In this document: positions 31,524 through 45,024 of the stretch, piece after piece
How positions within the stretch are numbered: position 1 is the stretch's first letter
Layout of the letters: every line of letters starts with the position of its first letter
NCBI GenBank assembly: GCA_001787005.1
Contig: MFUV01000010.1
Location: 73,955 to 137,954 of the forward strand
DNA length: 64,000 nucleotides
Reading direction: 5' to 3'
Source of the DNA: Candidatus Nomurabacteria bacterium RIFCSPLOWO2_01_FULL_39_18
GTDB lineage: Bacteria; Patescibacteriota; Minisyncoccia; Phycocordibacterales; UBA9973
Translations under genes and position numbers: made by a program
The notes under the pieces: generated by a model
Databases searched by the model: none
Told to the model about the DNA's origin: nothing
Seen by the model: the letters and a program-made list of their open reading frames with translations, nothing else

Positions 31524-32351
31524 TTATATCAAAAATTCTATCACATCTCCGTCTTTTACAATGTATTCTTTGCCTTCGGTGCGAACCAAGCCTTTCGAGC
31601 GAGCAGCAACATGTGAACCACAATCTAATAAATCTTTCCAATTTACTACTTCCGCGCGGATAAATTTTTCTTTGAAATCATTGTGTATCGCTTTACCCGC
31701 TTCCGGCGTCGTAGAACCTCTGCGAGTTGTCCAGGCGCGAGTTTCATCTTCGCCAGTGGTTAAAAAGGTAATTAGGTTGAGCAAATCATAGCTTGCCTTG
31801 ATGAGACTATCGAGTCCAGTGCCAAAAACTGGATCAACTTCTATGTACGGACCAGGAATTTTATCTGCCACTTCCCGCATATTTTTCTCGCTAGCTTCCG
31901 ACATATTAAGAACATAAAGAATCGGTTTTCTAATTCCTGCTTGTTCTAGCTCAAAATTTATTACTTCAATATCAAAAAGCGGGTCAATTTTATTATGCAC
32001 ATGGATTGTATTTGCATCCTCGAAAATCCGCACCATTTCGATAATCGCATCCACTTCACGAATGTGGGAAAGGAATTTATTACCGAGCCCGGCGCCCTCG
32101 CTTGCCCCCTTGACCAATCCTGCAATGTCCACAAACTCAACTACCGCCGGAATAACTTTTTTAGATTTGCTCATCGCCGCAAGCTTCTCTAATCTCTCGT
32201 CTGGCACCGGAACAATACCCACCGACGGGTCAATGGTACAAAAAGGATAATTCTCCGCAGGTACGCCTTTCTTCGTCAGCGCATTAAAAAGCGTGGACTT
32301 ACCCACGTTCGGTAAACCGACAATCCCTATTTTCAGAGAAGAACTTGACAT
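31524..32351 (-). CDS. ychF: Ribosome-binding ATPase YchF (Obg-family), compact form
   Basis: IGIVGLPNVGKSTLFNALTK and NYPFCTIDPSVGIVPVPDERL match the YchF N-terminus. The TGS-like C-terminus is EYIVKDGDVIEFLI. At 275 aa it lacks the usual helical insert. Confidence 0.85.
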   Translation of the reverse strand: MSSSSLKIGIVGLPNVGKSTLFNALTKKGVPAENYPFCTIDPSVGIVPVPDERLEKLAAMSKSKKVIPAVVEFVDIAGLVKGASEGAGLGNKFLSHIREVDAIIEMVRIFEDANTIHVHNKIDPLFDIEVINFELEQAGIRKPILYVLNMSEASEKNMREVADKIPGPYIEVDPVFGTGLDSLIKASYDLLNLITFLTTGEDETRAWTTRRGSTTPEAGKAIHNDFKEKFIRAEVVNWKDLLDCGSHVAARSKGLVRTEGKEYIVKDGDVIEFLI

Positions 32352-33954
32352 ATATATCGCTTAGACTAAGTATACCCTCAACTTGTAATGATTTTTGACT
32401 AGCAATGGAAAACGAAAGACACTCGCTTATAACCTTCTGTCGAGCCTGAAAATCAAAGTTTTTGAGGCATTCGGCTGCAGCTGCGGTGAATTCTTTAATT
32501 TCATCCTTGCCGGGGAGTATTATGTCATTTTTAGATGTTTTTTCCAAATCAGCCTGGATTATTTGATCTTCCAACTTTCTTATCTCTTCCCTTATGGGTG
32601 CGACATACTCCTTGAACTTTTCAAGCGAAAAAGCTTCTTTAGAGAATGCGTTAGCAAGACGATCCTCTCTTACTTGCAGTTTTTCTATTTCCTTAAGAGT
32701 GCCTTCAGCACTGATAGCTGACTCTGATTTATAACCTTTATGATTTTCAATCCACCTTTCGGTGTATCTTTGCAGAAGTTCTGGTGAGCTCATTATTTCT
32801 TTCACTCTTCCCCATAATACTTTATCCGCTATTCTTGCGTTGATGCCACGCTCTCTGCAATCAGGTTCAAGTGGAAAACTATAAACGCGATCAGTGCAGC
32901 GATAATATAAATACTTTCCTCGTTGAGGACCCTCACCTGCTCTTCTTTTTCCGCAAGTACACCAAATTTTGCCAGCCAATAAATAATCATTCTTTTTATT
33001 TCGACCTAGAGTTGCAAAATTCTTTTTCAATCGCGCTCCGGCTTGTTTAAAAAGATTATTGTCAGTAATAATCACTGGAACTGTTATCTTATACCACTCA
33101 TCTTTCGGCTTCATCTTTCTGCTAGTTTTTTCTATTTTTTTATACTTTTCATTTTTAAGAGGCTTTTTGGGAACTACTGCAAATGAAGCACCCCAATGCG
33201 TTACTCCAATGTATACCTCGTGGCGCAAAAGAGTACTTAAGGTGCTTGTATTCCAAACTCCCCTTTTACTTTTTCTTGGATAGATTTTTTGTTCATGTAA
33301 TTTTCTAACAACTGCACGGAGAGTCAAACCATCATTAGCAACCCAGGAAAAAATATTTCTAACGATTTCGGCTTCACGATCGTTTATCTTATAATGTCCG
33401 GGATCGTAGTCGCCTGCGCTCTTTTTACCTTTATTGGGAATATAAGTATATCCATAAGGCGCTACGGTGGTAAGAACTTGATTGTTTTTTACACGATTTA
33501 CCTTGCCTATTCTAAAGCGTTCAGCAATTTTAGCCTTTTCATATGCAGCAAATAAACCTCTCACGCCAAATAGCAGCTTGTCTGTAGCGCTTTCTACCGG
33601 TAACATCGTCACAAATAAAATTTCTATACCTAGTTTTTTCAACTCGTTTATTACAATCTGCTGAAGAAAGAGTTCCCGGCCTAGACGGTCAGGATCATAA
33701 ATAACAACCGCATCCCAAATTTTATTTGTTGCATCGTGTCGTAATTGATCTAGTTGGGGCCTAGCAAGAATATCTCCGCTCCAGCCCTCATCTTTGTAGG
33801 TTTTAACGACAACTAACTCATTCTCTTTAATATACTTATCCACTTCAGACAACTGAGCGTCAATGGTTTTCTGATCTTCCTGATTTGAAGTGGAAACACG
33901 AGCATATACTGATACATGCTTTATTCCCATTTTTGCTATATTTTCATTTTTCAT
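32299..33954 (-). mobile_element. Large serine recombinase (resolvase/invertase catalytic domain + recombinase domain + zinc-ribbon)
   Basis: N-terminal VSVYARVSTSNQEDQ carries the catalytic Ser. YDPDRLGRE and the downstream recombinase domain follow. CTCGKRRAGEG...YYRCTDR is a Zn-ribbon. Size is 551 aa. Confidence 0.85.
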
Positions 33955-33961
33955 GTTTTCA

Positions 33962-34201
33962 TTATTTTAATTTATAATAATTATTTTTAATTGTTTCTTT
34001 AAAGAGAACATCGAAGATAGAGTCTAGTTTCCCATCAATATCTTCAGAATCCTCCATCCAGAAAGTGACCTGAACCCCGTCGACTACACAGGAATCAAAG
34101 GTCACCCTGGCACATACATCCAATGAATCAGAACACGACACGAAAAGAGTTTTCTCTAAGTCATTTTCCGATTCTTTAAGATAGTTGTTTGCTTTTTTCA
34201 T
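33962..34201 (-). CDS. Hypothetical small acidic protein
   Basis: 79-aa ORF. A further unlisted ORF of about 52 aa (MEKTKEGKIKIEVEID..., roughly 34208..34366, minus strand) lies adjacent. Confidence 0.3.
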   Translation of the reverse strand: MKKANNYLKESENDLEKTLFVSCSDSLDVCARVTFDSCVVDGVQVTFWMEDSEDIDGKLDSIFDVLFKETIKNNYYKLK

Positions 34202-34660
34202 AACTTTTTAATAATCTTCAGGCCGTAAAAGCCAGTTCATGAGTATCAGATGAAGCGCGCGTGAAATTGATATATTGTCTTGCTTAGCACCAAATTCTAA
34301 TTCACTATAAATTACTTCATCGATTTCAACTTCTATCTTTATTTTACCTTCTTTTGTTTTTTCCATGATATTTTAAATTAAAACTAGTAATAGTTTTAAA
34401 AAACAAACGAAAAACCTCGCTATTACGTAGTGGAGTATTCTTTAAGTACGACCACCACGCAAAAGCGAGGCTTTAAAGAATACTTTCAATCCAAAGAGAT
34501 TTATCGTTATTTTTAAAACGAGGTTGGCGCAGAAGACTAGATTGTCTTACTGAAACCACATAACATAACCTTACACATAGCCAGATACCTTATACGAAAA
34601 ATATAATATTGGATCAATTATACGCCAGTCCCATAATCTGTGAAGTGTGGATAACGAAAA

Positions 34661-34701
34661 AACGGTCCTGCCACGAAATGTAGCAGAACCGTTTTCTTTT
34701 A
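34661..34701. terminator. Bidirectional rho-independent terminator (aacggtcctgc...gcagaaccgtt hairpin flanked by A6 / TTCTTTT)
   Basis: 11-bp stem with 1 mismatch and a 9-nt loop. It has a T-run on the plus strand and an A-run on the minus strand. Lies just 3' of the 34699..35566 minus-strand operon. Confidence 0.6.
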
Positions 34702-35250
34702 CCGAACTGGCACCAAACTTGCAATCAAATCACTCGCATCCTGCCTAGAAAGTCCAGAATTGATTTGATTTAGGTATCGTTCTCGATCCTCTGGATCATC
34801 TAGTTCTAGAACCAGCCTATCTAGGTACTGGCGCTGCTTCTCGGTCATTTCTGGTTCTTCAAATCCTTCCATCTCTTCACTTCCATTAGCTCGAATTGAT
34901 TCCAAGATTTTTACCGCATTGTTTGTTGCAGATAAAAAACTTCCGTTGATACTGGAGGAAATGGTTCTGTCTAAGTATTTATTTAACTTCGAAAATACGG
35001 ATACGCTTCTTCCGAAAGCGATCAAGCTTCCATTTAATTTAAGAGTGCAAAGAACGCCAACCAGTCCAGGAATGTTGAGATTTTTTAACGTCTCTGTGTC
35101 TTCCTGGAAACTGACCTCAAGAGTAAATGGATTTCCACATAATCTTTTAACTTCTTCTCTAACAGGATGATTCTCACCCCTAACATCTATCACCGGCTTA
35201 ACCTTGGGTTGAAGCGGAGACAGTATTCTTTTGTTTAATGTATTATTCAT
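34699..35250 (-). CDS. Hypothetical protein (183 aa), co-transcribed with the ArdC-N-like gene
   Basis: Overlaps the upstream ORF by 8 nt. No motif recognised. Confidence 0.45.
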   Translation of the reverse strand: MNNTLNKRILSPLQPKVKPVIDVRGENHPVREEVKRLCGNPFTLEVSFQEDTETLKNLNIPGLVGVLCTLKLNGSLIAFGRSVSVFSKLNKYLDRTISSSINGSFLSATNNAVKILESIRANGSEEMEGFEEPEMTEKQRQYLDRLVLELDDPEDRERYLNQINSGLSRQDASDLIASLVPVR

Positions 35251-35566
35251 GTTTTTTATATTCTTGAACCTGTCTATAGTAGAACAGGTAGATACTTTTA
35301 ATGCGCTTGGTAATTTTCTTCGGATCTTTCTTGTCTTTAGTTTCTAAGACAACAAAGGAACGAATAGCTTTTTCACCCTTCTTTGGAACCATCCCAAGCT
35401 GAATCCAATTCCTAAAGGTAAGCGCGGACCTCAATGGATCATAGTTTTTTAATTCACTCTGGCCCCAGCGACGGACTATCTCTTCCTCTACAAGAGCACG
35501 AGTTTTATCTGAACCCATGTAATTAGAGACTTCCGGACCTTTTAATATTTCACCTATAGATTTCAT
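35243..35566 (-). CDS. ArdC-N-like (DUF1738) ssDNA-binding domain protein
   Basis: LTFRNWIQLGMVPKKGEKAIRSFVV matches the ArdC N-terminal signature (FxxxxQWxxLGxxVxKGEKgI). 107 aa, with no metalloprotease domain. Confidence 0.55.
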   Translation of the reverse strand: MKSIGEILKGPEVSNYMGSDKTRALVEEEIVRRWGQSELKNYDPLRSALTFRNWIQLGMVPKKGEKAIRSFVVLETKDKKDPKKITKRIKSIYLFYYRQVQEYKKHE

Positions 35567-36048
35567 AATAATTTACTTAACGAGTAATTTGTTCACAAGG
35601 GACTAGCTTGTGCTTAGAAGACCTACATCGACCTTGTCTTCTTAACAAAATAATTGTTGGTATTTTATGGAGTTGAGATAAAGAGGTGCCGGGGGGTTGT
35701 TGGTTTGACTCCCTATAAGTTCGAACGCTGTGGGGTAAACGTACCCATTTATGGTTTTGGAAAAAATCGTCAATTTAGAATTAAGGGCCTTAAAAAAATT
35801 TCTAAAAATTTTACAGAAAAATGGCCTTTGATTTCGGCCGCCGAATTTGATCGATTTGCGAGTGACTTAAAAGGGTTGTATGATAGAGGTATAACTAAAT
35901 AAGAAGTAACCTAAACCAGAAATGGCATGGTGAAAAATCGCAGTGAACAATAAAAAACCCGTTATCAGGGGCGTTCACTGCGTTATGTGGGGAAACCTAC
36001 ATAAGAGCTTCGGCTCTCCTTGGTATCGGGCTTTTTGTTTGGGAAATT

Positions 36049-36333
36049 ATGAAAAATTTTAATAAAAAAGAAATAGATACAGGAGAACCTGCCAAGTGGA
36101 CCGGCTACTGGTTTGGACTGTGTTTAGTTATAGGGGTTTTGTTAACATTAATGGTTGAGAATTATAACGAAAAATTTGTAGATACTGGCTATGTATATAT
36201 TATGATTTTAATAGCTGGTGGGCCGTATATTATTTCTTTATGTTGGCCATTGATTAAAGAAAAATTATTTAGTCGTGAAGGTAAAACAGAAGAAGAGGAA
36301 ACAGAAAGCGAAATAAATTTTTATGGAAAATAA
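36049..36333 (+). CDS. Small membrane protein
   Basis: 94 aa, two TM helices. Confidence 0.4.
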   Translation: MKNFNKKEIDTGEPAKWTGYWFGLCLVIGVLLTLMVENYNEKFVDTGYVYIMILIAGGPYIISLCWPLIKEKLFSREGKTEEEETESEINFYGK

Positions 36334-36904
36334 ACAAAAAGTAATAATAGCATTAATAGTGAGTGCCTTTTTAATTGTTATGGCTATTTCTTATGCCGGT
36401 AAAAAATCAGAGGAAAACATTACCTCACCCCCCATAGCTGTTAATTCCAATTTTAGTGAGATTAGCCAAGCAGATCAAGAAAAAATAAGAGAGATAATGC
36501 TAGGGGTGATGCAAGATACTATTCAAGTTACTCCAGCGGTAAAACAGGAATTTATCTCAATATTTAAAAAATATAATGCGACGAATGAAGAAATAGAAGA
36601 TTTTGGAATGTATGGACCTGCGTTAGCGGTAAATTATCAAAAGATGTTTTTTACTGATGCCTTACAATCTGTGCAGAGTAGTTCTTCTGTTAAAAGCCAA
36701 GAAAGAGCTGATTATGAAGTTGAATTACTTCAGAAAGGTTTGATTACTCAAGAAAGAATAGATCAAAATGATGCAGAGATGTATAAGATTGCAAACCATC
36801 AGCTTAGTAGTAATGGGCAGGTTCTGGTAATTGAAGATATTAAGCAAACTCTAAATGGTATTGATATTGTTGGTGGGCGTATTAAAAGTTTATTTAGCAG
36901 GTAA
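36323..36904 (+). CDS. Membrane-anchored/secreted hypothetical protein
   Basis: 193 aa, N-terminal TM/signal. Start overlaps the previous gene. Confidence 0.45.
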   Translation: MENKQKVIIALIVSAFLIVMAISYAGKKSEENITSPPIAVNSNFSEISQADQEKIREIMLGVMQDTIQVTPAVKQEFISIFKKYNATNEEIEDFGMYGPALAVNYQKMFFTDALQSVQSSSSVKSQERADYEVELLQKGLITQERIDQNDAEMYKIANHQLSSNGQVLVIEDIKQTLNGIDIVGGRIKSLFSR

Positions 36905-36914
36905 TTAAAAATAT

Positions 36915-37232
36915 ATGGAAAATCAAAACAAGTGGAATAAAGAGCTGTTATACTCCGTGATCTTTCTCGTAGCTGCTTTTTTATGGTTTACCTTTAACCC
37001 CTTTTCGCAAATAAGAGATCTAACGAATGGTATTTACAGCGTTTTGAGCGTAATGGCGGTAGGATTTTATGTCTTTACTTTACTTTCCCTCTATTGTGGT
37101 TTAAAAGCTGCTAGGAGAGCCACAAGAGAGCACAGAAGGGATTTATTGGTGTTTTCTTCTATTGTTGTTTTGGCTTCTGCTGCTCTGGCGATTTTCATTA
37201 CTTTGTTCTTAACTGGGGCGATTAAGTATTAG
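36915..37232 (+). CDS. Small membrane protein
   Basis: 105 aa, three hydrophobic helices. Confidence 0.4.
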   Translation: MENQNKWNKELLYSVIFLVAAFLWFTFNPFSQIRDLTNGIYSVLSVMAVGFYVFTLLSLYCGLKAARRATREHRRDLLVFSSIVVLASAALAIFITLFLTGAIKY

Positions 37233-37260
37233 TGGAGAGCTAATCAATAGCAGACATAAA

Positions 37261-37310
37261 TTACCGAATATTCGGTAAAATTGGCACCAAATATGCCGAA
37301 TATTCGGTAA
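37261..37310. promoter_or_regulatory. Tandem operator-like palindromes ttaccgaatattcggtaa (perfect 18-mer) and tgccgaatattcggtaaaa, centres about 31 bp apart
   Basis: Exact dyad symmetry, read directly. They sit at the start of a roughly 750-bp ORF-free region (37233..37988). Confidence 0.5.
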
Positions 37311-37988
37311 AACTAACTGGACGTGCATCCAGAGTTTTGGCGTTGGAGTTATCCACGTTGACAGGGATACGTGGGACTGTGAAATAATGAACTTATTATG
37401 ATATGGAAAAAAGTTATTTTTTCAAAGAACTGACTTCTCTAGTTTAAGTTACGGGAATCCTGAGGGGTTATGGGAGCATTTGCTTAATTGCGGAGTCAAC
37501 CCATCCCTTGGATGCTATTAAAATGACTCCCCCTGATGCGACTTCGACAGCATTCGAAGTTCGAAGGGACTAGTTTATTACTATGCAATGTAGTGAATTA
37601 ATCCCTTCGACAGGTAGCACCTTGAAGGAACTTAACGCAGTATCGTGGCCGACCCTTCTCGTAGAACAGATGCCCCTATCAAAAGACTTGAAAACTACAG
37701 TCTGGCGCCTGGGAAACACATAACATTGATACAGTATCTTCCCATAGAAGTAAAAAGGGATCAAAGATATGAGAAACTTCCGCAGGCAATACGCCATAGG
37801 ATATAAAGCGTAAAAAAATATAGCAATTCCCATTCTTGTCTCAGGGAGAAGTTTTAAATAAAATCTAAACAATATGCACGAATACAGAACACCGAAGTTA
37901 GAAGTTTATAAATTCTGAACTTCGAATATTTGATTAAAAGTGAAAATAATAAGTTTATTGATGGTGAGTTCAATTTTAATAAAAATAA

Positions 37989-38897
37989 CTATTCCTCTGA
38001 GAAATAATCAGAATCTACTTTTTTTATTTCATAAGTAGTGATTGTTGAAACACCAATATTATATTCCACCATCAATTTCGCTAGCTGGATTCCATCAATA
38101 AGAATAACTTTGCTGTCTAATCGCTGGGCATATTCAATTGCGTCTTTAGTAAAATTAGAAGTTGTGATAAAAATTCCTTTTTTCGCAAATTTGCCGTTCA
38201 GCGCACCTACAAAACTTTGTACTTCTGGACGACCCACGCTATTATCATTCCATCTTTTGGCCTGAACATATATTAGATCAAGTCCAAGTTTATCTTCCTT
38301 AATAACCCCATCTATTCCACCGTCCCCAGATCTTCCTATGGCTTGCCCTGCATCTTTCCTAGAACCACCATATCCCATACCCAACAATAGATCTATGACA
38401 GATTGCTCAAAAAAGGCAGGAGAGCTAGATTTAAGACTATTAAGCAGTTCTGCATATAATTCTTTTACGATACTTTGATATCCAGCTTCCATTGTTTCTT
38501 CCGGAGTATTTTCTTCTAAATCTTCTACTTCGTTAGATTTTTCTAGGGTATCAGCTCCGCCTTGAAACTCATTAAAAGACGAAAATTTTCTTAGAAAACT
38601 TGGATCAATTATTTCTGGTTTTTGTGCTAAAACTTTTTGTCCTTGCGGTGTAATTTTAAATAAAGCTTTTTTGGGCGCATCAACTAAACCTGCTTTTTTA
38701 AGATACGTTTTCGCCCACCCTACTCTATTGCTAAAAATAGTCATTCTTCCACTTGGAGTCATCTGACTAAGATCACTTTCTTTTAGATTAAATTTAATCG
38801 CCAAAGAACTTTCGGCTTCTTTCAAGGAGTGCTCTTGGCCATCCGCTAAATATTCCAATAAAGGTTTTATAACGTATTTAAATTGTGGTATTGGCAT
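37989..38897 (-). CDS. Mrr-like restriction endonuclease (type IV)
   Basis: Collinear with E. coli Mrr: N-terminal winged helix (FKYVIKPLLEYL..NRVGWAKTYLKKAGL) and catalytic core GDGGIDGVIKEDKLGLDLIYVQAKRW (D-(E/Q)xK). Confidence 0.85.
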   Translation of the reverse strand: MPIPQFKYVIKPLLEYLADGQEHSLKEAESSLAIKFNLKESDLSQMTPSGRMTIFSNRVGWAKTYLKKAGLVDAPKKALFKITPQGQKVLAQKPEIIDPSFLRKFSSFNEFQGGADTLEKSNEVEDLEENTPEETMEAGYQSIVKELYAELLNSLKSSSPAFFEQSVIDLLLGMGYGGSRKDAGQAIGRSGDGGIDGVIKEDKLGLDLIYVQAKRWNDNSVGRPEVQSFVGALNGKFAKKGIFITTSNFTKDAIEYAQRLDSKVILIDGIQLAKLMVEYNIGVSTITTYEIKKVDSDYFSEE

Positions 38898-38905
38898 TTA
38901 TAATT

Positions 38906-40795
38906 TTATTTTAGCTGATAGTAAAAATAGGTACCGTCAGGGAATTTAATGTTTGGTACCCAGAGAGGTCTTCCTTCCCATCCTTTATTAGTCTCTCCAT
39001 TGAGCCGGTAAAGGGTTAGGACCACTCTATCGTTAAAGTGATTACCGAGGTCTCGGTCTGTCGGAGATAACAGTGTGCCTGTCCCCTTACTTATACTTCT
39101 ACCTGTTCGAATAATCATACGACATTGATATTTTGCACCTTTTTTAAGCGTCCCAACACAGTCAGCAAAAGAATGCTGGTTCCATAAATCAGTTTTCTCC
39201 ACGCTTATTAAATGCAGTATTTTTTCAGTCTCCGCTAAAGATATGTCATCCTCACGATCTTTTGAACCGAGTATTCTATCTAAAGAAGAAAGACCTAAGT
39301 GTGTTGGATTAAGGGGAAAATAATTCACTCCTCCAGCAATAATCATAAGTTCTTCTTTTAAGACCACGCTTAGACGAGTTGGACGAGCTCCTTTTGGAGT
39401 CAAAAGACTAACTGCTTGTGGACCTTTCTTTTGAAGAGTATCAAAAAGCGCATTGTTAGCGTCATTCAATTCACGAAAAAGTTTTATGAGGGGTTGCGGA
39501 CTAAATATGCGACATAATTCACGATCTCTGTCATATCCAAATATACGGGCATGTTGCCACGAGGTATCTGCTTGGGGTGTTTTAGCGCTTCTGCAATAAT
39601 AAACTATTTGCAGACCTGGAAATGTCACCCCTCTTCCCAAAGTATTACCACCTATAACTATGTTGAGGCCTTCATCGTATGCTGTACCTTCTGGCGCCTT
39701 TGAGTTTAGAACTGTAATATTAACTCCGGGCATGTCTGCGCGAAGAAAATCCAAAATAGCTTTGAACGGCTTTATCCTGCTTTTAGTTTTTGATAGTTCT
39801 TCCCATGCATCACGAAGGTCCAGTTCAAGTAAAGTTGAAGAGTCTGCGACTAGATCAGTCTTCAAACCTTCAAGAAATTTTTCCACCTTTGTCCTTACGG
39901 TTGTATGTTCACTTATTTTTGACCCTGGGTGAATTAACATCGTACAAACAGATTTATGGTCACCTAAAAGTAAATCGGATGCTGCGATAAGAAAATGCAA
40001 GACAGCTTTACGAAGCCCTACGGGAATATGTTCCGCCTTTAGTAAATCATCCCGCTCATTGTCCTCTGTCTCTATTAGATTTTTTGAGTCCTCTCCATAA
40101 AAAAAATCCCCTCCCAGATAACCCTTACCGGGCGGAAGATAAAATGAGTATTGAGGTTTCCACCCTGACATTTCTATTTGTAGCACAAGAGACTGAGGAG
40201 TTGCTGTAACATGGAGGTATATTGAAGAAGGCGCCTGTTTATTTATCTTTTCAAGTAGCTTGTTAATTGTACTCTGATCATTCTGGTTAACCCTTGTATT
40301 TAAACTAGATGCATCTGCTTCATCATCCAGTAGAAAAAGTGGCTCTTCTTTGTAAATTGGATTGGAAGCTATGTTATTCGCCCATGTTTTTAGAACGTTA
40401 GGATCTTTCTTAAGAACAATCATAGTCGGCATCTGTAAACCTCTATTTAAAAAAGCTGCCTCATCCGTTTCTCCAAATACATTGAATCCAGCCATGAATC
40501 CTCCTAGAGAATTTTTTGCTCTTTCAAGTGTCTGCTTGTGCAAAATTACATTGCTTGTGGTAACTAGGATAAAAAATTTAAATCCTCTATCGGCAGCTGC
40601 AGCAGCGATAGCAAGCATTTGTCCTGTTTTTCCACTTTGCACATGGCCATATAATAAACCGGATACATGACTATTGTGGTCAAAATTATCTATATGTTTT
40701 TTAGCAAAATCTTCTGCTGTTTTTTCCAACATAGGAACAAGACCCGGGTTAGATGCTCCGGCACGTTTTAAATAATTGTCCAAAAATTTTCTCAT
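38906..40795 (-). CDS. P-loop NTPase (Walker A GHVQSGKTG, Walker B LLDDEAD), possibly Z1-domain family
   Basis: 629 aa. Walker A near the N-terminus is followed by an FFILVTTSN strand and DDEAD, with a long C-terminal region without recognised motifs. The Z1 assignment is from memory of the family pattern, not a search. Confidence 0.5.
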   Translation of the reverse strand: MRKFLDNYLKRAGASNPGLVPMLEKTAEDFAKKHIDNFDHNSHVSGLLYGHVQSGKTGQMLAIAAAAADRGFKFFILVTTSNVILHKQTLERAKNSLGGFMAGFNVFGETDEAAFLNRGLQMPTMIVLKKDPNVLKTWANNIASNPIYKEEPLFLLDDEADASSLNTRVNQNDQSTINKLLEKINKQAPSSIYLHVTATPQSLVLQIEMSGWKPQYSFYLPPGKGYLGGDFFYGEDSKNLIETEDNERDDLLKAEHIPVGLRKAVLHFLIAASDLLLGDHKSVCTMLIHPGSKISEHTTVRTKVEKFLEGLKTDLVADSSTLLELDLRDAWEELSKTKSRIKPFKAILDFLRADMPGVNITVLNSKAPEGTAYDEGLNIVIGGNTLGRGVTFPGLQIVYYCRSAKTPQADTSWQHARIFGYDRDRELCRIFSPQPLIKLFRELNDANNALFDTLQKKGPQAVSLLTPKGARPTRLSVVLKEELMIIAGGVNYFPLNPTHLGLSSLDRILGSKDREDDISLAETEKILHLISVEKTDLWNQHSFADCVGTLKKGAKYQCRMIIRTGRSISKGTGTLLSPTDRDLGNHFNDRVVLTLYRLNGETNKGWEGRPLWVPNIKFPDGTYFYYQLK

Positions 40796-40798
40796 AAT

Positions 40799-41851
40799 TT
40801 ATCTAGAAAAATCTAACAACCATACTTTAGGATCAGCTGTTTCTTTTAGTGATATGGTAGTGCGTCCATATTTTTGTAGAACCTCCGGCGTAACTGGCTG
40901 ACCCACCTTAAGACACCCTGCCCTTTCGAGCCTTCCCTTAATCCACCGACCTAGGGTCCTCAAATCACCCTCTGATCTAAAATTCTTACCATAATCTCCC
41001 TGTATTTTGCAATTAAACTGCCATCCATCATCGGTATAAACACGAATGATTGAATCCTGCTCCGGATAACCGTCTGCCTGGGTTATCTCTATTGGAACAA
41101 TAAGCTCTACTTCATACCAATGTCTAGGACGTATCGCCCCTGTTTTGGTAGCAAGTCTTCCTTTTCCAAAGTAAGCATTAAGATTGCTCTTTGCTTCTGT
41201 TTTAAGAGGAAGATCGAACACTCGGTCAGTTAAAGTACTTTCTATTTTACGATACTCCTCCTCATCTGCTTTGTCTACATCAATTCTATCCTTCAGTAGA
41301 TCGGGTGTTTCAATAAAAGATTCTGGTTTAGGCCAATTAAGAATATCTTTTGATGCTTTTTTAATTAATTCTTCGTGTAACGTATTAAGTTCTGATAAAA
41401 TATTTTCTTCTTTAAAAAGAGCGTCCACTTCCCACTGTCTACTATCAAGAATGTTCCCCAGATTAGATGACCCCATCATTCCAGACACGGGAATAGGTTT
41501 TTCCGCCTTACTGAATAGGTAAGTTTTTCCATGAAATTTAAATGCTGTAGAAACATGAACGCTTCCTATACCTTTATCTTTTAAGAAAGTTGCAAGATCT
41601 ATGGCTGCCTCATATTGCGCTTGTGTAAATCCTTCCCTCCCATGCATTCCAATTACAAGACTACATGTTTTAGTTTGATTTTCTTCACTATAAAAAAGTA
41701 GCACCGCTTTTAGTTCCAGCAGCGACTCTTCAGTAATGTAACCTGTAGCTATTTTTATATTGTCAGAATTTACAACACCATACTCAAAAGCCTCACTAAA
41801 GGAAGAATTGTCGTACTCGCAAGGTTTGATTTTTGAGTAAAGAAGTTCCAT
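40799..41851 (-). CDS. PLD-family nuclease-like protein (NgoFVII/BfiI-like restriction endonuclease candidate)
   Basis: FHGKTYLFS...GSSN approximates the HxK(x)4D(x)6GSxN motif, with Ser at the Asp position. 350 aa with a distinct C-terminal domain. Tentative. Confidence 0.45.
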   Translation of the reverse strand: MELLYSKIKPCEYDNSSFSEAFEYGVVNSDNIKIATGYITEESLLELKAVLLFYSEENQTKTCSLVIGMHGREGFTQAQYEAAIDLATFLKDKGIGSVHVSTAFKFHGKTYLFSKAEKPIPVSGMMGSSNLGNILDSRQWEVDALFKEENILSELNTLHEELIKKASKDILNWPKPESFIETPDLLKDRIDVDKADEEEYRKIESTLTDRVFDLPLKTEAKSNLNAYFGKGRLATKTGAIRPRHWYEVELIVPIEITQADGYPEQDSIIRVYTDDGWQFNCKIQGDYGKNFRSEGDLRTLGRWIKGRLERAGCLKVGQPVTPEVLQKYGRTTISLKETADPKVWLLDFSR

Positions 41852-41875
41852 GCAAGTTTGGCTTATAAATCATCA

Positions 41876-42931
41876 TTATAATTCATCTAAAAATTTCTTA
41901 ATTGCCCTAGCTATTGGCTTAATCCCAGCTGGAGGGACAGAATTACCTATTTGTCTTCTAACTTCAGCTATGGACCCCACAAACTCAAAATCATCAGGAT
42001 AGCCAAAGAGGCGGGCACGTTCCCGGTTGGTAAGAGGCCTATTTTCCTTATAGTGATACCCCCAAGTACCGCCGCCGCCACCTGCAATGATAGTAGTCGA
42101 TGGTTTGTCTGGATGCAAGCGACGATAGACGTGAGATATCATTCCTTTTACATAGTGGGGAGAGTTTTTTGGTATGTCGGTAAAATTTCCGCCAGGGGGT
42201 ATCAGTCGTAATTTTGCTACTGTACTTGGCGCAATATTTTGATTTTCATTATTAAAACTAATTTTCTCTACTCCTTTTAGGGCTTCCCTTGCGGTAATAT
42301 AATTTTCTGGTGTATGAGTTGGAGCTGGCAACTTGAATTCTTTATTTAGATCATTGCGAACACCGATTATTAGCACACGTTGACGAAGCTGAGGAGCACC
42401 GTAATCAGCAAAATTTATAGGATATACATCTACCCTATATCCCGCTTCTCCAAAATCGTTTACAATCTGAGTTACTGCTTTACCTTTATTAGCGCTAAGA
42501 AGACCTCTGACATTTTCAGCCACGAACATCTTGGGCTGTTTCGCAAGAACAACACGAACAAATTGTCGGTATAAATTTCCACGATCTGTTTTAAGACCCA
42601 TGCGCTTCCATATCATTGAAAAGTCCTGACATGGAAAACCACCCAGAATTATTTCACAATCTGGAACATCTTCATCCTTAACAGCTGTAATACTTCCCTC
42701 TACAATATGGTCACCAAAGTTTTTTTTAAATGTTTCGCAAGCCCAGTGGTTTACATCATTTGCCCAAATTATTTCGAACCCAGCATCTTTAAAACCCAAA
42801 TCCATCCCTCCAGATCCAGAGAAAAGTGATGCTATCCTGTAAACTCTTTTTTTTAGGTTCTTCATATCTGCTTTGTCTACTTTAGAATTTACTATATTTA
42901 TATTTGGTTTTCGCAAAGCAGCTATTGGCAT
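41876..42931 (-). CDS. DNA (cytosine-5)-methyltransferase
   Basis: Motif I LFSGSGGMDLGF. Motif IV GGFPCQDFS. Motif VI ENVRGL. Size is 351 aa. Confidence 0.9.
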   Translation of the reverse strand: MPIAALRKPNINIVNSKVDKADMKNLKKRVYRIASLFSGSGGMDLGFKDAGFEIIWANDVNHWACETFKKNFGDHIVEGSITAVKDEDVPDCEIILGGFPCQDFSMIWKRMGLKTDRGNLYRQFVRVVLAKQPKMFVAENVRGLLSANKGKAVTQIVNDFGEAGYRVDVYPINFADYGAPQLRQRVLIIGVRNDLNKEFKLPAPTHTPENYITAREALKGVEKISFNNENQNIAPSTVAKLRLIPPGGNFTDIPKNSPHYVKGMISHVYRRLHPDKPSTTIIAGGGGGTWGYHYKENRPLTNRERARLFGYPDDFEFVGSIAEVRRQIGNSVPPAGIKPIARAIKKFLDEL

Positions 42932-43056
42932 ACATTCATTATACCTTAATAAGTTCTAAAAAGCCGCTATTTGAGAACGCAGAAAAGCACCAATTCTCAA
43001 TCGCGGCTTATTTTAAGCGGCAATTTTGGAAAAAGTTTTCCACAGCTATTGCTTAT

Positions 43057-44766
43057 TTAATACACCTCCTGCTGATAGCATTTTTCACAATATATTATGG
43101 GTGCGTATTTTTCGGGATATACCGTCTCTACCTCTGTGCTGCATTTAGAGCAATTGCGGTTGATAATTTGCAAAGGTGGACGCTTATCCATCCGCCGTAT
43201 ATGCCTGATATCAAAACACACTCGCGGTAGTGGTAAATTCATTCTTCTGTAAAAAGATAATTCATTTTCAGTAATTCTATAGGCTCCTACAGAGTTGGGG
43301 TTGTCTTTTTCGGCACACTCAATAACCTCGTTTAAAATCGAATCACTTACCTCCTTGATGGTTTCAGGCAATTCCGAGGCCTTAAGGGTGACTTTGTAAT
43401 TTTTCTTACCTTTATCTATCCAGCGATAACCATTTTTAATTGCCTCTTCTTTAGTGAGGGGATAATAATAATTCGCAATTGTTTCATTGTAAGCAAAATC
43501 AGAAAAATTGGCCGGAAAGTTCTCTCCAAATCGATACTCCAGACCTCTATTATCTATATAAGGTACTTTTTTCATAGAATCAATGATTTCATTTTTAAGC
43601 TTTTCATACTCTTCCTTGGAATATTCTTTATTTAGAATGGAATATTTCCCTTTTTTCAAACCCACACAACCGAAGCAATCATGAGCGCCTGGACAATTAT
43701 TGCAGTAGTATAAGTCGTGCGCACCCATCCAGCACTGATTACAAAAATAAAGGCGAGCAATATCAATGCCACAATTCTGGGATTCGTAGATTTGCTCCGC
43801 CTTATTGCCCCATTCAAAATAATCCATACAATCCTCAGCGTTGAAAACCATAAATAGGTACTTACCGTCTCTTACGCTTTCGCAGTCGAAAGATTCCTTA
43901 ACGTTTTTACTATTCATAAACCAGTTACCTGAAACACTCTCAGACTTAATAGACATTATGGCCCTCTGTGGAAATTTCTTCCTAAATTCTTCAAATTCAA
44001 CCTTCATTTTTTCAATTCCAAGAAAAGTATCTAGTCTCATTTCTTCCAGCTTTTTGAAATATTCCTCTTTTGAATACTTTTTGTTCCAAATACAGTACTC
44101 CGCATTAACCAAATTCACGCAACCCACACAATTCGAAGAATTTCTGCATGCGTAAATAAAAGAACAATCACGGGAATCCTTACTCTCTTGGCCAAATTTC
44201 ACATTGTAGCAGTTCGCGCAATTAACACACTCATAACACAGCTCGCATTCGAAAAGCCATGAGCCATCACAACAATCAAGAATATGTTTTTTGCCGTTGT
44301 AAAGATATAAAGAATTTTCTGGATAAGAACTACGAAAAACCATATAAGAATTTTTAGGATCGGTGACGCGATGAGCATAGGGGCTGTTTATGGCAAACCC
44401 TTGCCGAACTATAGACATTCTAGGCACTTTATTTTGAAGTTCTAAAAATTGTTCGAAGAAAGATCGGCTTGGGTCATAGTCCATGCCGTAGGAATAGGGG
44501 TCCCAAACATCGGAGTACCAAATATCAGTTTCGTAAACAGGAAACTGGGTGTCCTCCGAATACATGCTAAAAATCTCTTTACCGGAAAAACTGCATTTTC
44601 TTTTATATAAAACAGTCTCGCTTGTATGTATAAAGCGCCGAAGCAGTCTACATCCTGGGCAAAAAGTCGGAGGAGGTACTTTTATTTTTTTATAAAATCC
44701 GAAATCATCAACTTCAATAGTAAAGTCCTTTTTGCAGTTTTGACAGACCTTGGTTTCAGCTTCCAT
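43057..44766 (-). CDS. Cysteine-rich paralog C (569 aa)
   Basis: Same N-terminal (CQNCKKDFTIEVDDFGFYKKIKVPPPTFCPGCRLLRR) and C-terminal (IIYCEKCYQQEVY) ends and internal YSKEEY/CxxC modules as ORFs 255..2012 and 2057..3751. Confidence 0.75.
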   Translation of the reverse strand: MEAETKVCQNCKKDFTIEVDDFGFYKKIKVPPPTFCPGCRLLRRFIHTSETVLYKRKCSFSGKEIFSMYSEDTQFPVYETDIWYSDVWDPYSYGMDYDPSRSFFEQFLELQNKVPRMSIVRQGFAINSPYAHRVTDPKNSYMVFRSSYPENSLYLYNGKKHILDCCDGSWLFECELCYECVNCANCYNVKFGQESKDSRDCSFIYACRNSSNCVGCVNLVNAEYCIWNKKYSKEEYFKKLEEMRLDTFLGIEKMKVEFEEFRKKFPQRAIMSIKSESVSGNWFMNSKNVKESFDCESVRDGKYLFMVFNAEDCMDYFEWGNKAEQIYESQNCGIDIARLYFCNQCWMGAHDLYYCNNCPGAHDCFGCVGLKKGKYSILNKEYSKEEYEKLKNEIIDSMKKVPYIDNRGLEYRFGENFPANFSDFAYNETIANYYYPLTKEEAIKNGYRWIDKGKKNYKVTLKASELPETIKEVSDSILNEVIECAEKDNPNSVGAYRITENELSFYRRMNLPLPRVCFDIRHIRRMDKRPPLQIINRNCSKCSTEVETVYPEKYAPIIYCEKCYQQEVY

Positions 44767-45024
44767 AAGAGCATTATACTCGTTTTAGTGGCTTAAAACC
44801 ATAATTTACACACCTTCAGGCTCCGGCGCTGCGGATTTTAAAATCCTCCCTTGTTTATCCCGACTTATAATATTCCGCTGATAACGAGGTGCTGGAAGCT
44901 TTATCGTAAATTCGAACGGGACTTGTTTTGTGGCAATATTAGTGTTAAAAAGTTGGGTTGCATTCGTGGTATTCCGACGGAAATACTCATAATTGGCAGA
45001 TTATATCATAAGATAGAGCAAAAT

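What the first reader, a model, noticed from the sequence alone, without database searches (positions are those of the whole stretch)
32299..42931. Probable integrative element: serine recombinase + ArdC-N-like + small unknown genes + defence island
A large serine recombinase (32299..33954) sits next to core gene ychF. It is followed by a run of small ORFs without housekeeping homologues, including an ArdC-N-like ssDNA-binding protein (35243..35566) typical of conjugative or mobilisable elements. A 750-bp non-coding stretch follows, then Mrr/NTPase/PLD/methyltransferase genes. Core metabolism resumes at ppsA (45025). No capsid or terminase genes are present, so it is not a prophage. An integrative mobilisable element is more likely.
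Basis: partly seen in the sequence, partly recalled or inferred. Interest (0 to 1): 0.65.

Follow-up and report, generated by a model that had tools for sequence, protein, structure and literature searches.

The report
Integrated element splitting its own recombinase
A 12.6-kb mobile element carrying restriction-modification genes is inserted into the first codons of the housekeeping gene ychF of a Candidate Phyla Radiation bacterium by a serine recombinase whose attachment site lies inside its own gene, so insertion swaps the ends of both genes.

Summary
The element spans window 32328-44975 (12,648 bp), not 32299-42931. It is bounded by two hybrid attachment sites. attR (32302-32351) is where the recombinase ORF runs out of frame into ychF. 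attL (44950-44999) lies just after ppsA and keeps the ancestral ychF promoter, its ATG and five codons, fused to the detached last 54 codons of the recombinase. Joining the halves gives a 272-aa YchF like element-free relatives and a 598-aa recombinase like episomal relatives. In 67 of 80 metagenomic loci a homologue sits in the same overlap with ychF. Nine others have the long form, and two further contigs with the long form are circular. The reconstructed attP is 24+GG+24 bp with inverted outer arms. Cargo is a type II restriction-modification system, a type IV Mrr enzyme and a Cys-rich paralogue gene. The core has a weak ArdC-N-like protein, a possible annealing protein, a candidate directionality factor and a LOOT RNA. 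No relaxase, coupling protein or replicase was found, so "mobilisable" is unproven. No excised or empty form of this copy was found.

The parts
32302..32351 (-). attR, hybrid site P-GG-B'. P arm 32351-32328 is ATGTCAAGTTCTTCTCTGAAAATA and begins with the surrogate ychF start codon. The crossover GG is at 32327-32326. B' arm 32325-32302 encodes the YchF IVGLPNVG codons.
   Evidence: The GG is at this position in 68/68 attR sites. The ychF ATG lies 24 nt upstream of GG in 59/67 element-bearing loci, against 15 nt in 54/77 recombinase-free ychF genes.
32299..33954 (-). Large serine recombinase, integrated (chimeric) form of 551 aa. The last 7 codons (CRFTERG*) are ychF sequence read in another frame.
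   Evidence: Pfam Resolvase, Recombinase and Zn_ribbon. phrog_95 integrase 1.6e-81. YARVSTSNQ motif and four invariant Cys in alignment A1. More than 1000 homologues, all from Paceibacteria.
33962..34201 (-). 79-aa acidic protein with a C-terminal 'FDxLFKE' (AFDILFEE-type) motif. It lies immediately upstream of the recombinase and is a candidate recombination directionality factor or recombinase partner.
   Evidence: Homologues with the same motif sit directly upstream of the recombinase in 33 loci from four BLAST families. The function is inferred only.
34208..34366 (-). 52-aa ORF, first gene of the putative o52-o79-recombinase(-ychF) operon.
   Evidence: No family hit.
34367..34698 (-). Conserved non-coding region holding the best promoter-like site of the element (TTCACA-16-TATAAT, 34644-34617). 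It is the putative promoter of the recombinase operon and, by read-through, of ychF.
   Evidence: 11/12 matches; the overall count of such sites is not above chance. 78% nucleotide identity to the equivalent spacer in L087.
34699..35250 (-). 183-aa protein. The model shows a beta-beta-beta-long-helix core weakly like Rad52/Mgm101/ERF single-strand annealing proteins, with a DUF3072-like C-terminal helix motif.
   Evidence: AlphaFold model with pLDDT 76. Foldseek to RAD52 and Mgm101 at E 0.017-0.1. Named ERF/Rad52 proteins appear among weak BFVD hits. One homologue carries PF11272. This is a hint, not significant.
35243..35566 (-). 107-aa protein with a partial ArdC-N-like (ssDNA-binding) motif.
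   Evidence: Pfam ArdcN E=9e-4, below the cut-off. 7 of 10 homologues hit ArdcN independently, best 1.9e-4. A profile search of PDB did not find ArdC. The gene travels with the 183-aa gene in elements that have unrelated integrases.
35908..36017 (+). LOOT RNA (Rfam RF03000). It lies in the divergent intergenic region, 32 nt upstream of the 94-aa ORF and on the same strand.
   Evidence: 68.1 bits against a gathering score of 46.4. Found at the equivalent place in 14 of 17 related element loci.
36049..37232 (+). Operon of three small proteins (94, 193 and 105 aa) with hydrophobic, membrane-like segments. Function unknown.
   Evidence: sequences. No family hits. Operons of similar size and orientation occur in L086 and L095.
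37621..37774 (.). Conserved non-coding DNA of about 155 nt at the border between the conserved core and the cargo.
   Evidence: 81% identity to L086:4968-5117, with frame-breaking indels. No RNA-structure signal on either strand, z = +0.5 and +1.2. No Rfam hit.
37989..38897 (-). Mrr-type, methyl-directed type IV restriction endonuclease (cargo).
   Evidence: Mrr_N and Mrr_cat. PADLOC mREase_IV 2.7e-87.
38906..42931 (-). [not shown]
   Evidence: Pfam. PADLOC MTase_II 4e-118, REase_II 3e-96, Helicase_II 3e-183.
43057..44766 (-). 569-aa Cys-rich protein, a member of a very large multi-copy Paceibacteria family. It is the first gene downstream of the captured ychF promoter.
   Evidence: 5785 homologues at 63-85% identity. 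Chromosomal paralogue arrays sit beside TraG/VirD4-like ATPases. A 43%-identical paralogue lies inside the related L095 element. The model is poor and has no fold match.
44806..44973 (-). Detached 3' end of the recombinase gene: 54 codons plus stop, NTTNATQLF..VPFEFTIKLPAPRYQRNIISRDKQGRILKS... It has no start codon of its own.
   Evidence: Motif and HMM match to the C-termini of long-form recombinases, E=4e-23. Joining at GG gives an uninterrupted 598-aa ORF.
44950..45008 (-). attL, hybrid site B-GG-P', plus the ancestral ychF expression signals. These are an extended -10 TGATATAAT (45008-45000), the ancestral ychF ATG (44990-44988), B arm 44999-44976, GG 44975-44974 and P' arm 44973-44950.
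   Evidence: Joining to B' restores MSISVGIVGLPNVGKST (272 aa), the same length and N-terminus type as element-free L002 and L003.

Best explanation
The feature is a 12,648-bp integrative element (window 32328-44975) of a Candidatus Nomurabacteria (Paceibacteria, Candidate Phyla Radiation) genome. A large serine recombinase inserted it by conservative recombination at a GG dinucleotide. That GG is the first two bases of the first Gly codon of YchF's N-terminal 'IGIVGLPNVGKS'.

The element's attP (24 nt + GG + 24 nt, with inverted outer arms ATGTCnAGTT...AACnnGACAT) lies inside the 3' end of the recombinase gene itself. Integration therefore has three consequences.

1. It cuts off the last 54 codons of the recombinase and leaves them 12.6 kb away at attL. 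The recombinase ORF is closed with 7 codons of out-of-frame ychF sequence, turning a 598-aa protein into a 551-aa one.
2. It replaces the first five codons and the promoter of ychF with an element-borne ATG plus eight codons. These are encoded in the alternative frame of the recombinase tail, so YchF stays intact but is 3 residues longer. ychF is then probably transcribed with the recombinase operon.
3. It leaves the ancestral extended -10 promoter of ychF pointing into the element's co-oriented cargo: the Cys-rich paralogue, the type II restriction-modification system and Mrr.

Excision would rebuild the full-length recombinase gene on a circle and the 272-aa ychF on the chromosome.

Shown here: the two junctions, both reconstitutions, family-wide site specificity, and circular long-form relatives.

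Inferred: the exact crossover base pair (from symmetry), the promoter consequences, the role of the 79-aa protein as directionality factor, and whether this copy can still excise.
For: **Overlap at ychF**
- The recombinase stop lies 53 bp inside ychF, in another frame.
- The C-terminal tail of 30 homologues is the out-of-frame reading of the ychF P-loop region.

**Family-wide site specificity**
- Of 80 metagenomic loci with a homologue (46-69% identity), 67 have ychF within 150 nt of the recombinase stop, 9 have a 35-55 aa longer C-terminus with the motif IPFxFxIKLPPP, and 4 end at a contig edge.

**The distal junction in the window**
- That motif occurs once in the window, at 44887-44922(-), between ORF 43057-44766 and ppsA.
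- It is preceded by TGATATAAT, an ATG and 'SISVG'.
- Reconstitution gives a 598-aa recombinase and a 272-aa YchF starting MSISVGIVGLPNVGKST. Element-free relatives start MSLSIGIVG and are 272 aa long.

**The same anatomy in other loci**
- Six other integrated loci show the same attL/attR arrangement, with element sizes of about 7 to 11 kb.
- Reconstructed attP sites have 10-17/24 arm complementarity and up to 10/10 in the outer 10 nt, centred exactly on GG.

**Empty site at family level**
- A phosphoglucomutase gene flanks attL in L140, L152 and L163, and abuts ychF directly in element-free L012.

**Episomal forms**
- Contig L183 (9547 bp) has a 121-bp exact terminal overlap, the long-form recombinase and an intact attP.
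- Contig L184 (8445 bp) has an HTH_17 ORF that continues across its ends.

**Decayed copies**
- Relic tails without a recombinase (L008, L016 with three, L046 with two) and a recombinase C-terminal relic (L004) lie upstream of ychF.
Against: - No excised circle or empty site was found for this particular element. All 9-12 contigs carrying identical YchF or PpsA have the same arrangement.
- The reconstituted 598-aa and 272-aa proteins are absent from a collection of 15 billion sequences.
- The outer motif of the window's P' arm is less symmetric than in relatives, 6/10 against 7-10/10 (one other relative, L140, scores 4/10). This could mean decay.
- The crossover position is inferred from symmetry. 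An AT three bases further on would also restore both ORFs.
- ORF 43057-44766 belongs to a chromosomal multi-copy family, so part of the cargo may have entered after integration.
- The promoter calls are consensus matches and are not above chance.
Confidence: 0.85

Rival explanations
1. It is a fixed, immobilised remnant. The element integrated as described but can no longer excise. The recombinase ORF persists mainly because ychF now depends on its transcription and on the start codon embedded in it.
For: - Every contig of this population carries the element.
- All members of the 90% YchF cluster have the element-type N-terminus.
- No reconstituted forms are in the database.
- The outer motif of the P' arm is degenerate, 6/10, and the 'RH' codons conserved in other tails are lost.
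- Relics at this site in other genomes show that decay is common.
Against: - The recombinase ORF is full length with all invariant catalytic and Zn-ribbon residues.
- The detached tail is still an open frame with the conserved motifs, HMM E=4e-23. It has no start codon of its own, so it is expected to drift if it were useless.
- The candidate directionality-factor gene is intact.
Confidence: 0.35
2. It is a composite island. Only the core (32328 to about 37800) is the recombinase element. The restriction genes and ORF 43057-44766 were added to it later, or belong to an older decayed element whose attL survives.
For: - Homology with the sister elements L086 and L095 covers the core and stops at the conserved 155-nt block at 37621-37774.
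- Cargo differs completely between family members.
- ORF 43057-44766 is 85% identical to chromosomal paralogues.
- Multiple relic tails in L016 and L046 show repeated insertions at ychF.
Against: - The window has only one tail fragment and one recombinase.
- A second integration would leave an extra hybrid site.
- attL and attR fit together into one attP and one attB.
- L095 also carries a paralogue of ORF 43057-44766 inside the 10 kb upstream of its recombinase, and no attL was detected in that stretch.
- Variable cargo next to a conserved core is the normal anatomy of such elements. This rival mostly concerns history, not the present boundaries.
Confidence: 0.2
3. It is an integrative mobilisable element in the strict sense, transferred by a helper conjugation system.
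For: - An ArdC-N-like motif protein, typical of conjugative plasmids.
- A possible Rad52/ERF-like annealing protein, fitting ssDNA entry.
- Some family members carry a TrwB/FtsK-like ATPase with Replic_Relax and a primase.
- Chromosomal paralogues of ORF 43057-44766 sit beside TraG/VirD4-like ATPases.
Against: - No relaxase, oriT or coupling protein was detected in this element with Pfam, NCBIfam, PHROGs or PADLOC.
- The ArdC-N match is below threshold and lacks the ArdC protease domain.
- Most relatives carry Prim-Pol or DnaC-like replication modules, and some circular ones were found. That points to integrative plasmids.
Confidence: 0.15
4. It is a prophage or phage satellite.
For: - The recombinase matches phrog_95 'integrase'.
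- The size is in the satellite range.
- An element between dnaN and ychF is known in Streptococcus pneumoniae (PMC6375853).
Against: - No capsid, terminase, portal or packaging gene.
- The closest recombinases in IMG/VR are at most 32% identical.
Confidence: 0.05

Closest known systems
Large serine recombinase (serine integrase) elements such as phiC31, Bxb1, A118 and SPbeta prophages, and SCCmec/Tn4451-type elements
   Same: - Resolvase, Recombinase and Zn-ribbon architecture.
- attP of about 50 bp with imperfect inverted arms around a 2-bp crossover.
- No long direct repeats at the junctions.
- Insertion into a conserved gene that is kept or restored.
- A small partner gene next to the recombinase as a possible directionality factor.
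   Different: - attP lies inside the recombinase coding sequence, so integration exchanges the enzyme's C-terminus (598 to 551 aa).
- The element supplies a new start and N-terminus for the target gene, encoded in the overlapping frame.
- The host is a Candidate Phyla Radiation bacterium, and the relatives are plasmid-like rather than phage.
- I found no paper describing this for a serine integrase. That is an absence in one library, not proof.
Tyrosine integrases with attP inside int: SSV-type integration in Sulfolobus and Myxococcus phage Mx8 intP/intX (from my own knowledge, not checked here)
   Same: Integration splits or re-tails the integrase gene. Excision restores it. The integrated form encodes an altered C-terminus.
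   Different: - The enzyme class and chemistry are different (tyrosine against serine).
- Those elements target tRNA genes, not the 5' codons of a protein gene.
- In this element only the last 54 codons are removed.
Streptococcus pneumoniae phage-like island between dnaN and ychF (PMC6375853)
   Same: An element integrated immediately upstream of ychF. Integration or excision rearranges the ychF promoter and changes ychF expression.
   Different: - The site there is a 14-bp direct repeat in the promoter, not the coding sequence.
- The integrase class is not stated in the passages read. The 14-bp direct repeat suggests a tyrosine integrase (inferred).
- The host and the element are unrelated to this one.
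LOOT RNA motif (Rfam RF03000; Weinberg et al. 2017, PMC5737381)
   Same: The sequence at 35908-36017 passes the family's gathering score.
   Different: The main text of the source paper does not discuss the motif, and its supplement was not available. Here it is placed in a concrete context: the divergent control region of Patescibacteria integrative or episomal elements, whatever their integrase type.
NgoFVII-type three-component type II restriction-modification system plus Mrr
   Different: Nothing unusual was seen. Specificity and activity were not tested.

Membership tests
Large serine recombinase / serine integrase | N-terminal resolvase catalytic domain with the Ser nucleophile | tested here: met
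   PF00239 1.5e-28. Y17, R19, S21 and Q25 (YARVSTSNQ) are invariant in 30 homologues.
Large serine recombinase / serine integrase | Recombinase domain plus Zn-ribbon domain with an embedded coiled coil | tested here: met
   PF07508 1.7e-17. PF13408 1.3e-4 (22.7 bits, just under the 25.3 cut-off), but precomputed hits exist in many homologues. C332, C334, C353 and C366 are invariant. The coiled coil was not analysed.
Large serine recombinase / serine integrase | att sites of about 40-50 bp with imperfect dyad symmetry around a 2-bp crossover, and hybrid attL/attR without long direct repeats | tested here: met
   The reconstructed attP is 24+GG+24 in 7 integrated and at least 5 free loci, with 10-17/24 arm complementarity. 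No repeats longer than chance were found at the junctions.
Large serine recombinase / serine integrase | Catalyses attP x attB recombination, with excision needing a directionality factor | not testable with these tools
   Indirect evidence only: integrated, circular and empty states exist across the family.
Integrative mobilisable element (IME) | Integration/excision module | tested here: met
   Recombinase plus both att sites.
Integrative mobilisable element (IME) | oriT and/or relaxase, with or without a coupling protein, allowing mobilisation by a helper | tested here: not met
   None was detected in Pfam, NCBIfam, PHROGs or PADLOC for any ORF of the element. Divergent or unknown relaxases cannot be excluded.
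Prophage | Capsid, portal, terminase or other virion genes | tested here: not met
   No such hits. There are no close relatives in IMG/VR.
Integrative plasmid (self-replicating episome that integrates) | A replication initiator or primase, and a circular episomal form | tested here: inconclusive
   Relatives have Prim-Pol/AAA_25, a CHC2 zinc finger, or HTH_36 with a DnaC-like ATPase, and some are on circular contigs. No replicase was recognised in the window's element.
ArdC anti-restriction protein | N-terminal ssDNA-binding domain (PF08401) | tested here: inconclusive
   E=9e-4, 19.9 bits against a cut-off of 22.6, covering profile positions 66-101 of 123. 7 of 10 homologues hit weakly. A PDB profile search did not find ArdC.
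ArdC anti-restriction protein | C-terminal metalloprotease domain | tested here: not met
   The protein has only 107 aa and no such domain. True ArdcN + MPTase-PolyVal proteins occur in L185.
LOOT RNA (RF03000) | Covariance-model score at or above Rfam's gathering score | tested here: met
   68.1 bits against 46.4, over the full model length.
[not shown]
   (full-length matches).
'attP inside int' architecture (SSV / Mx8 type) | Integration separates or re-tails the integrase ORF, and excision restores it | tested here: met
   The 551-aa chimeric ORF and the 54-codon fragment join into a 598-aa ORF that matches long-form relatives. The enzyme class differs from the named examples.

The most novel reading that the evidence does not exclude
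The position of attP inside the recombinase gene may act as a built-in state switch for a whole family of Candidate Phyla Radiation episomes. The episome would make a 598-aa enzyme and the integrated copy a 551-aa chimera with a host-derived tail, and the two forms would differ in activity or directionality.

At the same time the element takes over the start codon and transcription of the conserved translation-associated ATPase YchF. It also donates the old ychF promoter to its cargo. The host would then be unable to silence or delete the recombinase operon without losing ychF expression.

The LOOT RNA, so far an orphan metagenomic motif, would be the regulatory RNA of these episomes.
Probability: 0.3. 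Interest if true: 0.8.

Novelty: new variant of a known kind. Interest (0 to 1): 0.62.

Why it matters
- Mobile elements of Candidate Phyla Radiation bacteria are poorly described. This gives a family with defined ends, a defined 50-bp attP and a defined attB in a near-universal gene, seen in integrated, circular, empty and decayed states.
- A serine integrase whose own gene is re-tailed by integration is a natural test case for how the C-terminal end affects directionality.
- The att sites and the enzyme are short enough to synthesise and test.
- The work gives a genomic home to the orphan LOOT RNA.
- It shows how restriction-modification cargo is delivered, and possibly expressed from a captured host promoter, in organisms with tiny genomes.

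Tried and rejected
- **Junction repeats.** A search for direct or inverted copies of the ychF junction elsewhere in 33955-45100 gave only chance-level matches inside genes.
- **Promoter-like motif.** Searching for a ychF-promoter-like motif gave chance-level hits. A look-alike at about 37826 turned out to be a generic extended -10.
- **Strain-level empty site.** Exact-protein look-ups of YchF and PpsA found only identical arrangements.
- **The 756-bp gap.** No Rfam family, no pseudogene remnants by blastx, and no RNA folding signal for its conserved block.
- **ORF 43057-44766.** No hit in Pfam, NCBIfam or PADLOC. The structure model is poor (pLDDT 65) and has no fold match.
- **Viral contigs.** No close recombinase.
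- **Reconstituted proteins.** Exact look-up found neither.
- **Literature.** Nothing on serine integrases with an internal attP, on such elements in Patescibacteria, or on LOOT function.
- **Inovirus-like reading.** Considered because of the small membrane proteins and rejected, because no Zot/pI-like ATPase is present.

Full report
**1. What is in the window**

The window comes from a Candidatus Nomurabacteria (Paceibacteria, Candidate Phyla Radiation) genome. The recombinase is 100% identical to a protein of 'Candidatus Nomurabacteria bacterium RIFCSPLOWO2_01_FULL_39_18'.

- ychF, 31524-32351(-)
- a large serine recombinase, 32299-33954(-), with Resolvase, Recombinase and Zn-ribbon domains
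- small ORFs with no family assignment
- a weak ArdC-N match for 35243-35566
- an ORF-poor stretch, 37233-37988
- an unassigned 569-aa ORF, 43057-44766
- ppsA, from 45025

PADLOC reads the cargo as a three-component type II restriction-modification system plus a type IV Mrr enzyme. There are no virion genes.

**2. The ychF-side junction**

The recombinase ORF ends 53 bp inside ychF, in another reading frame. In an alignment of 30 homologues (50-69% identity) the C-terminal tail '..EIYVKFFSExRNCRxAKxGE' is conserved. It is simply the ychF P-loop region (KIGIVGLPNVGKST) read out of frame.

In 80 metagenomic loci that hold a homologue:
- 67 have the ychF P-loop codons within 150 nt of the recombinase stop
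- 4 end at a contig edge
- 9 lack ychF

ychF genes without the element start ATGTC(T/A)TTAAGTATCGG (MSLSIG...). Element-bearing ones start ATGTCAAGTTCTTCTCTGAGTATAGG, three codons longer. The ATG lies 24 nt before a fixed GG in 59 of 67 element-bearing loci, and 15 nt before it in 54 of 77 recombinase-free genes. The element therefore brings its own start codon for ychF.

**3. The far junction**

The nine recombinases that are not next to ychF are 35-55 residues longer and end in a conserved motif, IPFxFxIKLPPP. That motif occurs once in the window, on the same strand at 44887-44922, in the spacer between ORF 43057-44766 and ppsA.

Just upstream lie a perfect extended -10 (TGATATAAT), an ATG, and codons for S-I-S-V-G, which is a typical YchF start.

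Joining the sequences at the GG dinucleotides (32327-32326 and 44975-44974) gives two products:
- An uninterrupted 598-aa recombinase whose tail aligns with the long forms (HMM E=4e-23).
- A 272-aa YchF beginning MSISVGIVGLPNVGKST. The closest element-free relatives, L002 and L003, also have 272-aa YchF ORFs.

The element is thus 32328-44975, 12,648 bp. Its GC content is 37.5% against 40% in the flanks.

**4. Support from other loci**

- Six further integrated loci show the same anatomy, with elements of about 7 to 11 kb.
- In three of them the gene outside attL is a phosphoglucomutase. In the element-free genome L012 this gene abuts ychF directly, which is an empty site at family level.
- The reconstructed attP sites are 24 nt + GG + 24 nt. 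Their outer arms are inverted repeats (ATGTCGAGTT...AACTCGACAT) with 10-17 of 24 positions complementary, and the GG sits exactly at the centre. This symmetry is why I place the crossover at GG. It is an inference: an AT three bases on would also restore both ORFs.
- Two contigs with the long-form recombinase and an intact attP are circular. L183 has a 121-bp exact terminal overlap. L184 has an HTH_17 ORF that continues across its ends.
- Decayed copies exist. A recombinase C-terminal relic lies before ychF in L004, and one to three orphan tail fragments lie upstream of ychF in L008, L016 and L046.

**5. How it most likely works**

Integration by the serine recombinase at the GG has three effects:
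1. It removes the last 54 codons of the recombinase and closes the ORF with seven out-of-frame ychF codons.
2. It gives ychF a new start and leaves it downstream of the o52-o79-recombinase operon. The best promoter-like site of that operon is at 34644-34617 (not above chance as a class).
3. It leaves the old ychF promoter reading into ORF 43057-44766 and the restriction genes, all of which are co-oriented with it.

Steps 2 and 3 are inferences from anatomy.

The 79-aa gene upstream of the recombinase carries a C-terminal AFDILFEE-type motif. The same motif is present in the corresponding gene of 33 loci from four otherwise unalignable families. It is my candidate for the directionality factor, which is inferred only.

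**6. The rest of the core**

- *107-aa protein.* It hits ArdcN below threshold, but 7 of 10 homologues do so independently. It lacks the ArdC protease domain.
- *183-aa protein.* Its model (pLDDT 76) weakly resembles Rad52, Mgm101 and ERF annealing proteins. None of the named matches is significant.
- *The gene pair.* This pair, together with a LOOT RNA, also occurs in elements with an unrelated serine recombinase next to a tRNA (L186) and with a tyrosine integrase plus Prim-Pol (L187).
- *LOOT RNA.* LOOT (RF03000) is at 35908-36017 with 68 bits. It was found in 14 of 17 related loci scanned, always in the control region upstream of an operon.
- *Replication and transfer genes in relatives.* Other family members carry Prim-Pol/AAA_25, a CHC2 zinc finger, DUF5659 and HTH_17 next to the recombinase. 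Others carry a TrwB-like ATPase with Replic_Relax and a primase.
- *This copy.* No replicase, relaxase or coupling protein was recognised in the window's copy, so 'mobilisable' remains unproven.

**7. Caveats**

- No excised or empty form of this very element was found.
- Its P' arm is less symmetric than most, so it may be fixed.
- ORF 43057-44766 belongs to a huge chromosomal multi-copy family, so some cargo may have been acquired after integration. Against this, only one tail fragment and one recombinase are present, and a paralogue lies in the same relative position in L095.

**8. Comparison and novelty**

The enzyme and the att-site design are those of known large serine recombinases. What I did not find described is:
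- an attP inside the serine recombinase gene, so that integration re-tails the enzyme
- the supply of a new N-terminus for the target gene from the overlapping frame
- this family in Patescibacteria
- the link with the LOOT RNA

Splitting of int by its own attP is known for tyrosine integrases (SSV type, Mx8; from my own knowledge). An unrelated island next to ychF that changes ychF expression is known in pneumococcus (PMC6375853).

I rate this a new variant of a known kind.

Noticed in passing
window 35908-36017 (+); also L085-L087, L091, L094, L095, L103, L124, L140, L146, L183, L184, L186, L187: LOOT RNA (RF03000) is a recurrent part of Patescibacteria integrative or episomal elements, whatever their integrase type. 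It sits just upstream of an operon in the control region. The source paper's main text does not discuss the motif.
   Followed up: partly
window 37621-37774: A non-coding block of about 155 nt is 81% identical to L086:4968-5117. That is more conserved than the neighbouring proteins. It has frame-breaking indels and no RNA-folding signal. It could be an origin, an oriT or a regulatory site at the core/cargo border.
   Followed up: partly
window 43057-44766 (-); L165-L170: A 569-aa Cys-rich protein with zinc-ribbon-like ends belongs to a family with thousands of highly conserved (63-85%) members in Paceibacteria. Members often form paralogue arrays beside TraG/VirD4-like ATPases and dnaK/grpE. 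It has no Pfam family and no fold match.
   Followed up: partly
window 26472-29390 (-): The leucyl-tRNA synthetase (972 aa) has a NUDIX domain hit at residues 405-508 (E=6e-11). In several relatives the LeuRS match splits into two segments around this position.
   Followed up: no
window 31524-32351 (-): YchF here is a short form of 275 aa, as in L002, L003 and L085. Many other Paceibacteria have forms of 330-375 aa, with extra sequence after about residue 135-142.
   Followed up: no
L016:3996-7400, L046:1589-5000, L008:5611-5769, L004:9734-10050: Orphan recombinase tail fragments (up to three in a row) and a recombinase C-terminal relic lie upstream of ychF in genomes with no intact recombinase. 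The site appears to have been used repeatedly, with the elements then decaying.
   Followed up: partly
L186:3766-5470: An unrelated serine recombinase (22% identity) overlaps the end of a tRNA gene. Its element carries the same 107-aa/183-aa gene pair, a LOOT RNA and a Dcm-HpaII-AIPR defence cluster.
   Followed up: no
L183:4124-7174: The circular 9.4-kb relative carries a 1016-aa protein that combines a caspase-like peptidase (Peptidase_C14) with a DEAD-box helicase. It is possibly defence cargo.
   Followed up: no
L083 (contig k141_3570762, end at the dcm gene): One assembly of the same population breaks inside the methylase gene of the element. This could be strain variation or only an assembly artefact.
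   Followed up: no
P0022, P0075, P0071, P0060 (recombinase homologues): Some integrated recombinases have a duplicated tail segment ('..NLN..NNNHVKLFSSYRNCW'). This suggests duplicated P-arm sequence at attR, perhaps from secondary recombination.
   Followed up: no
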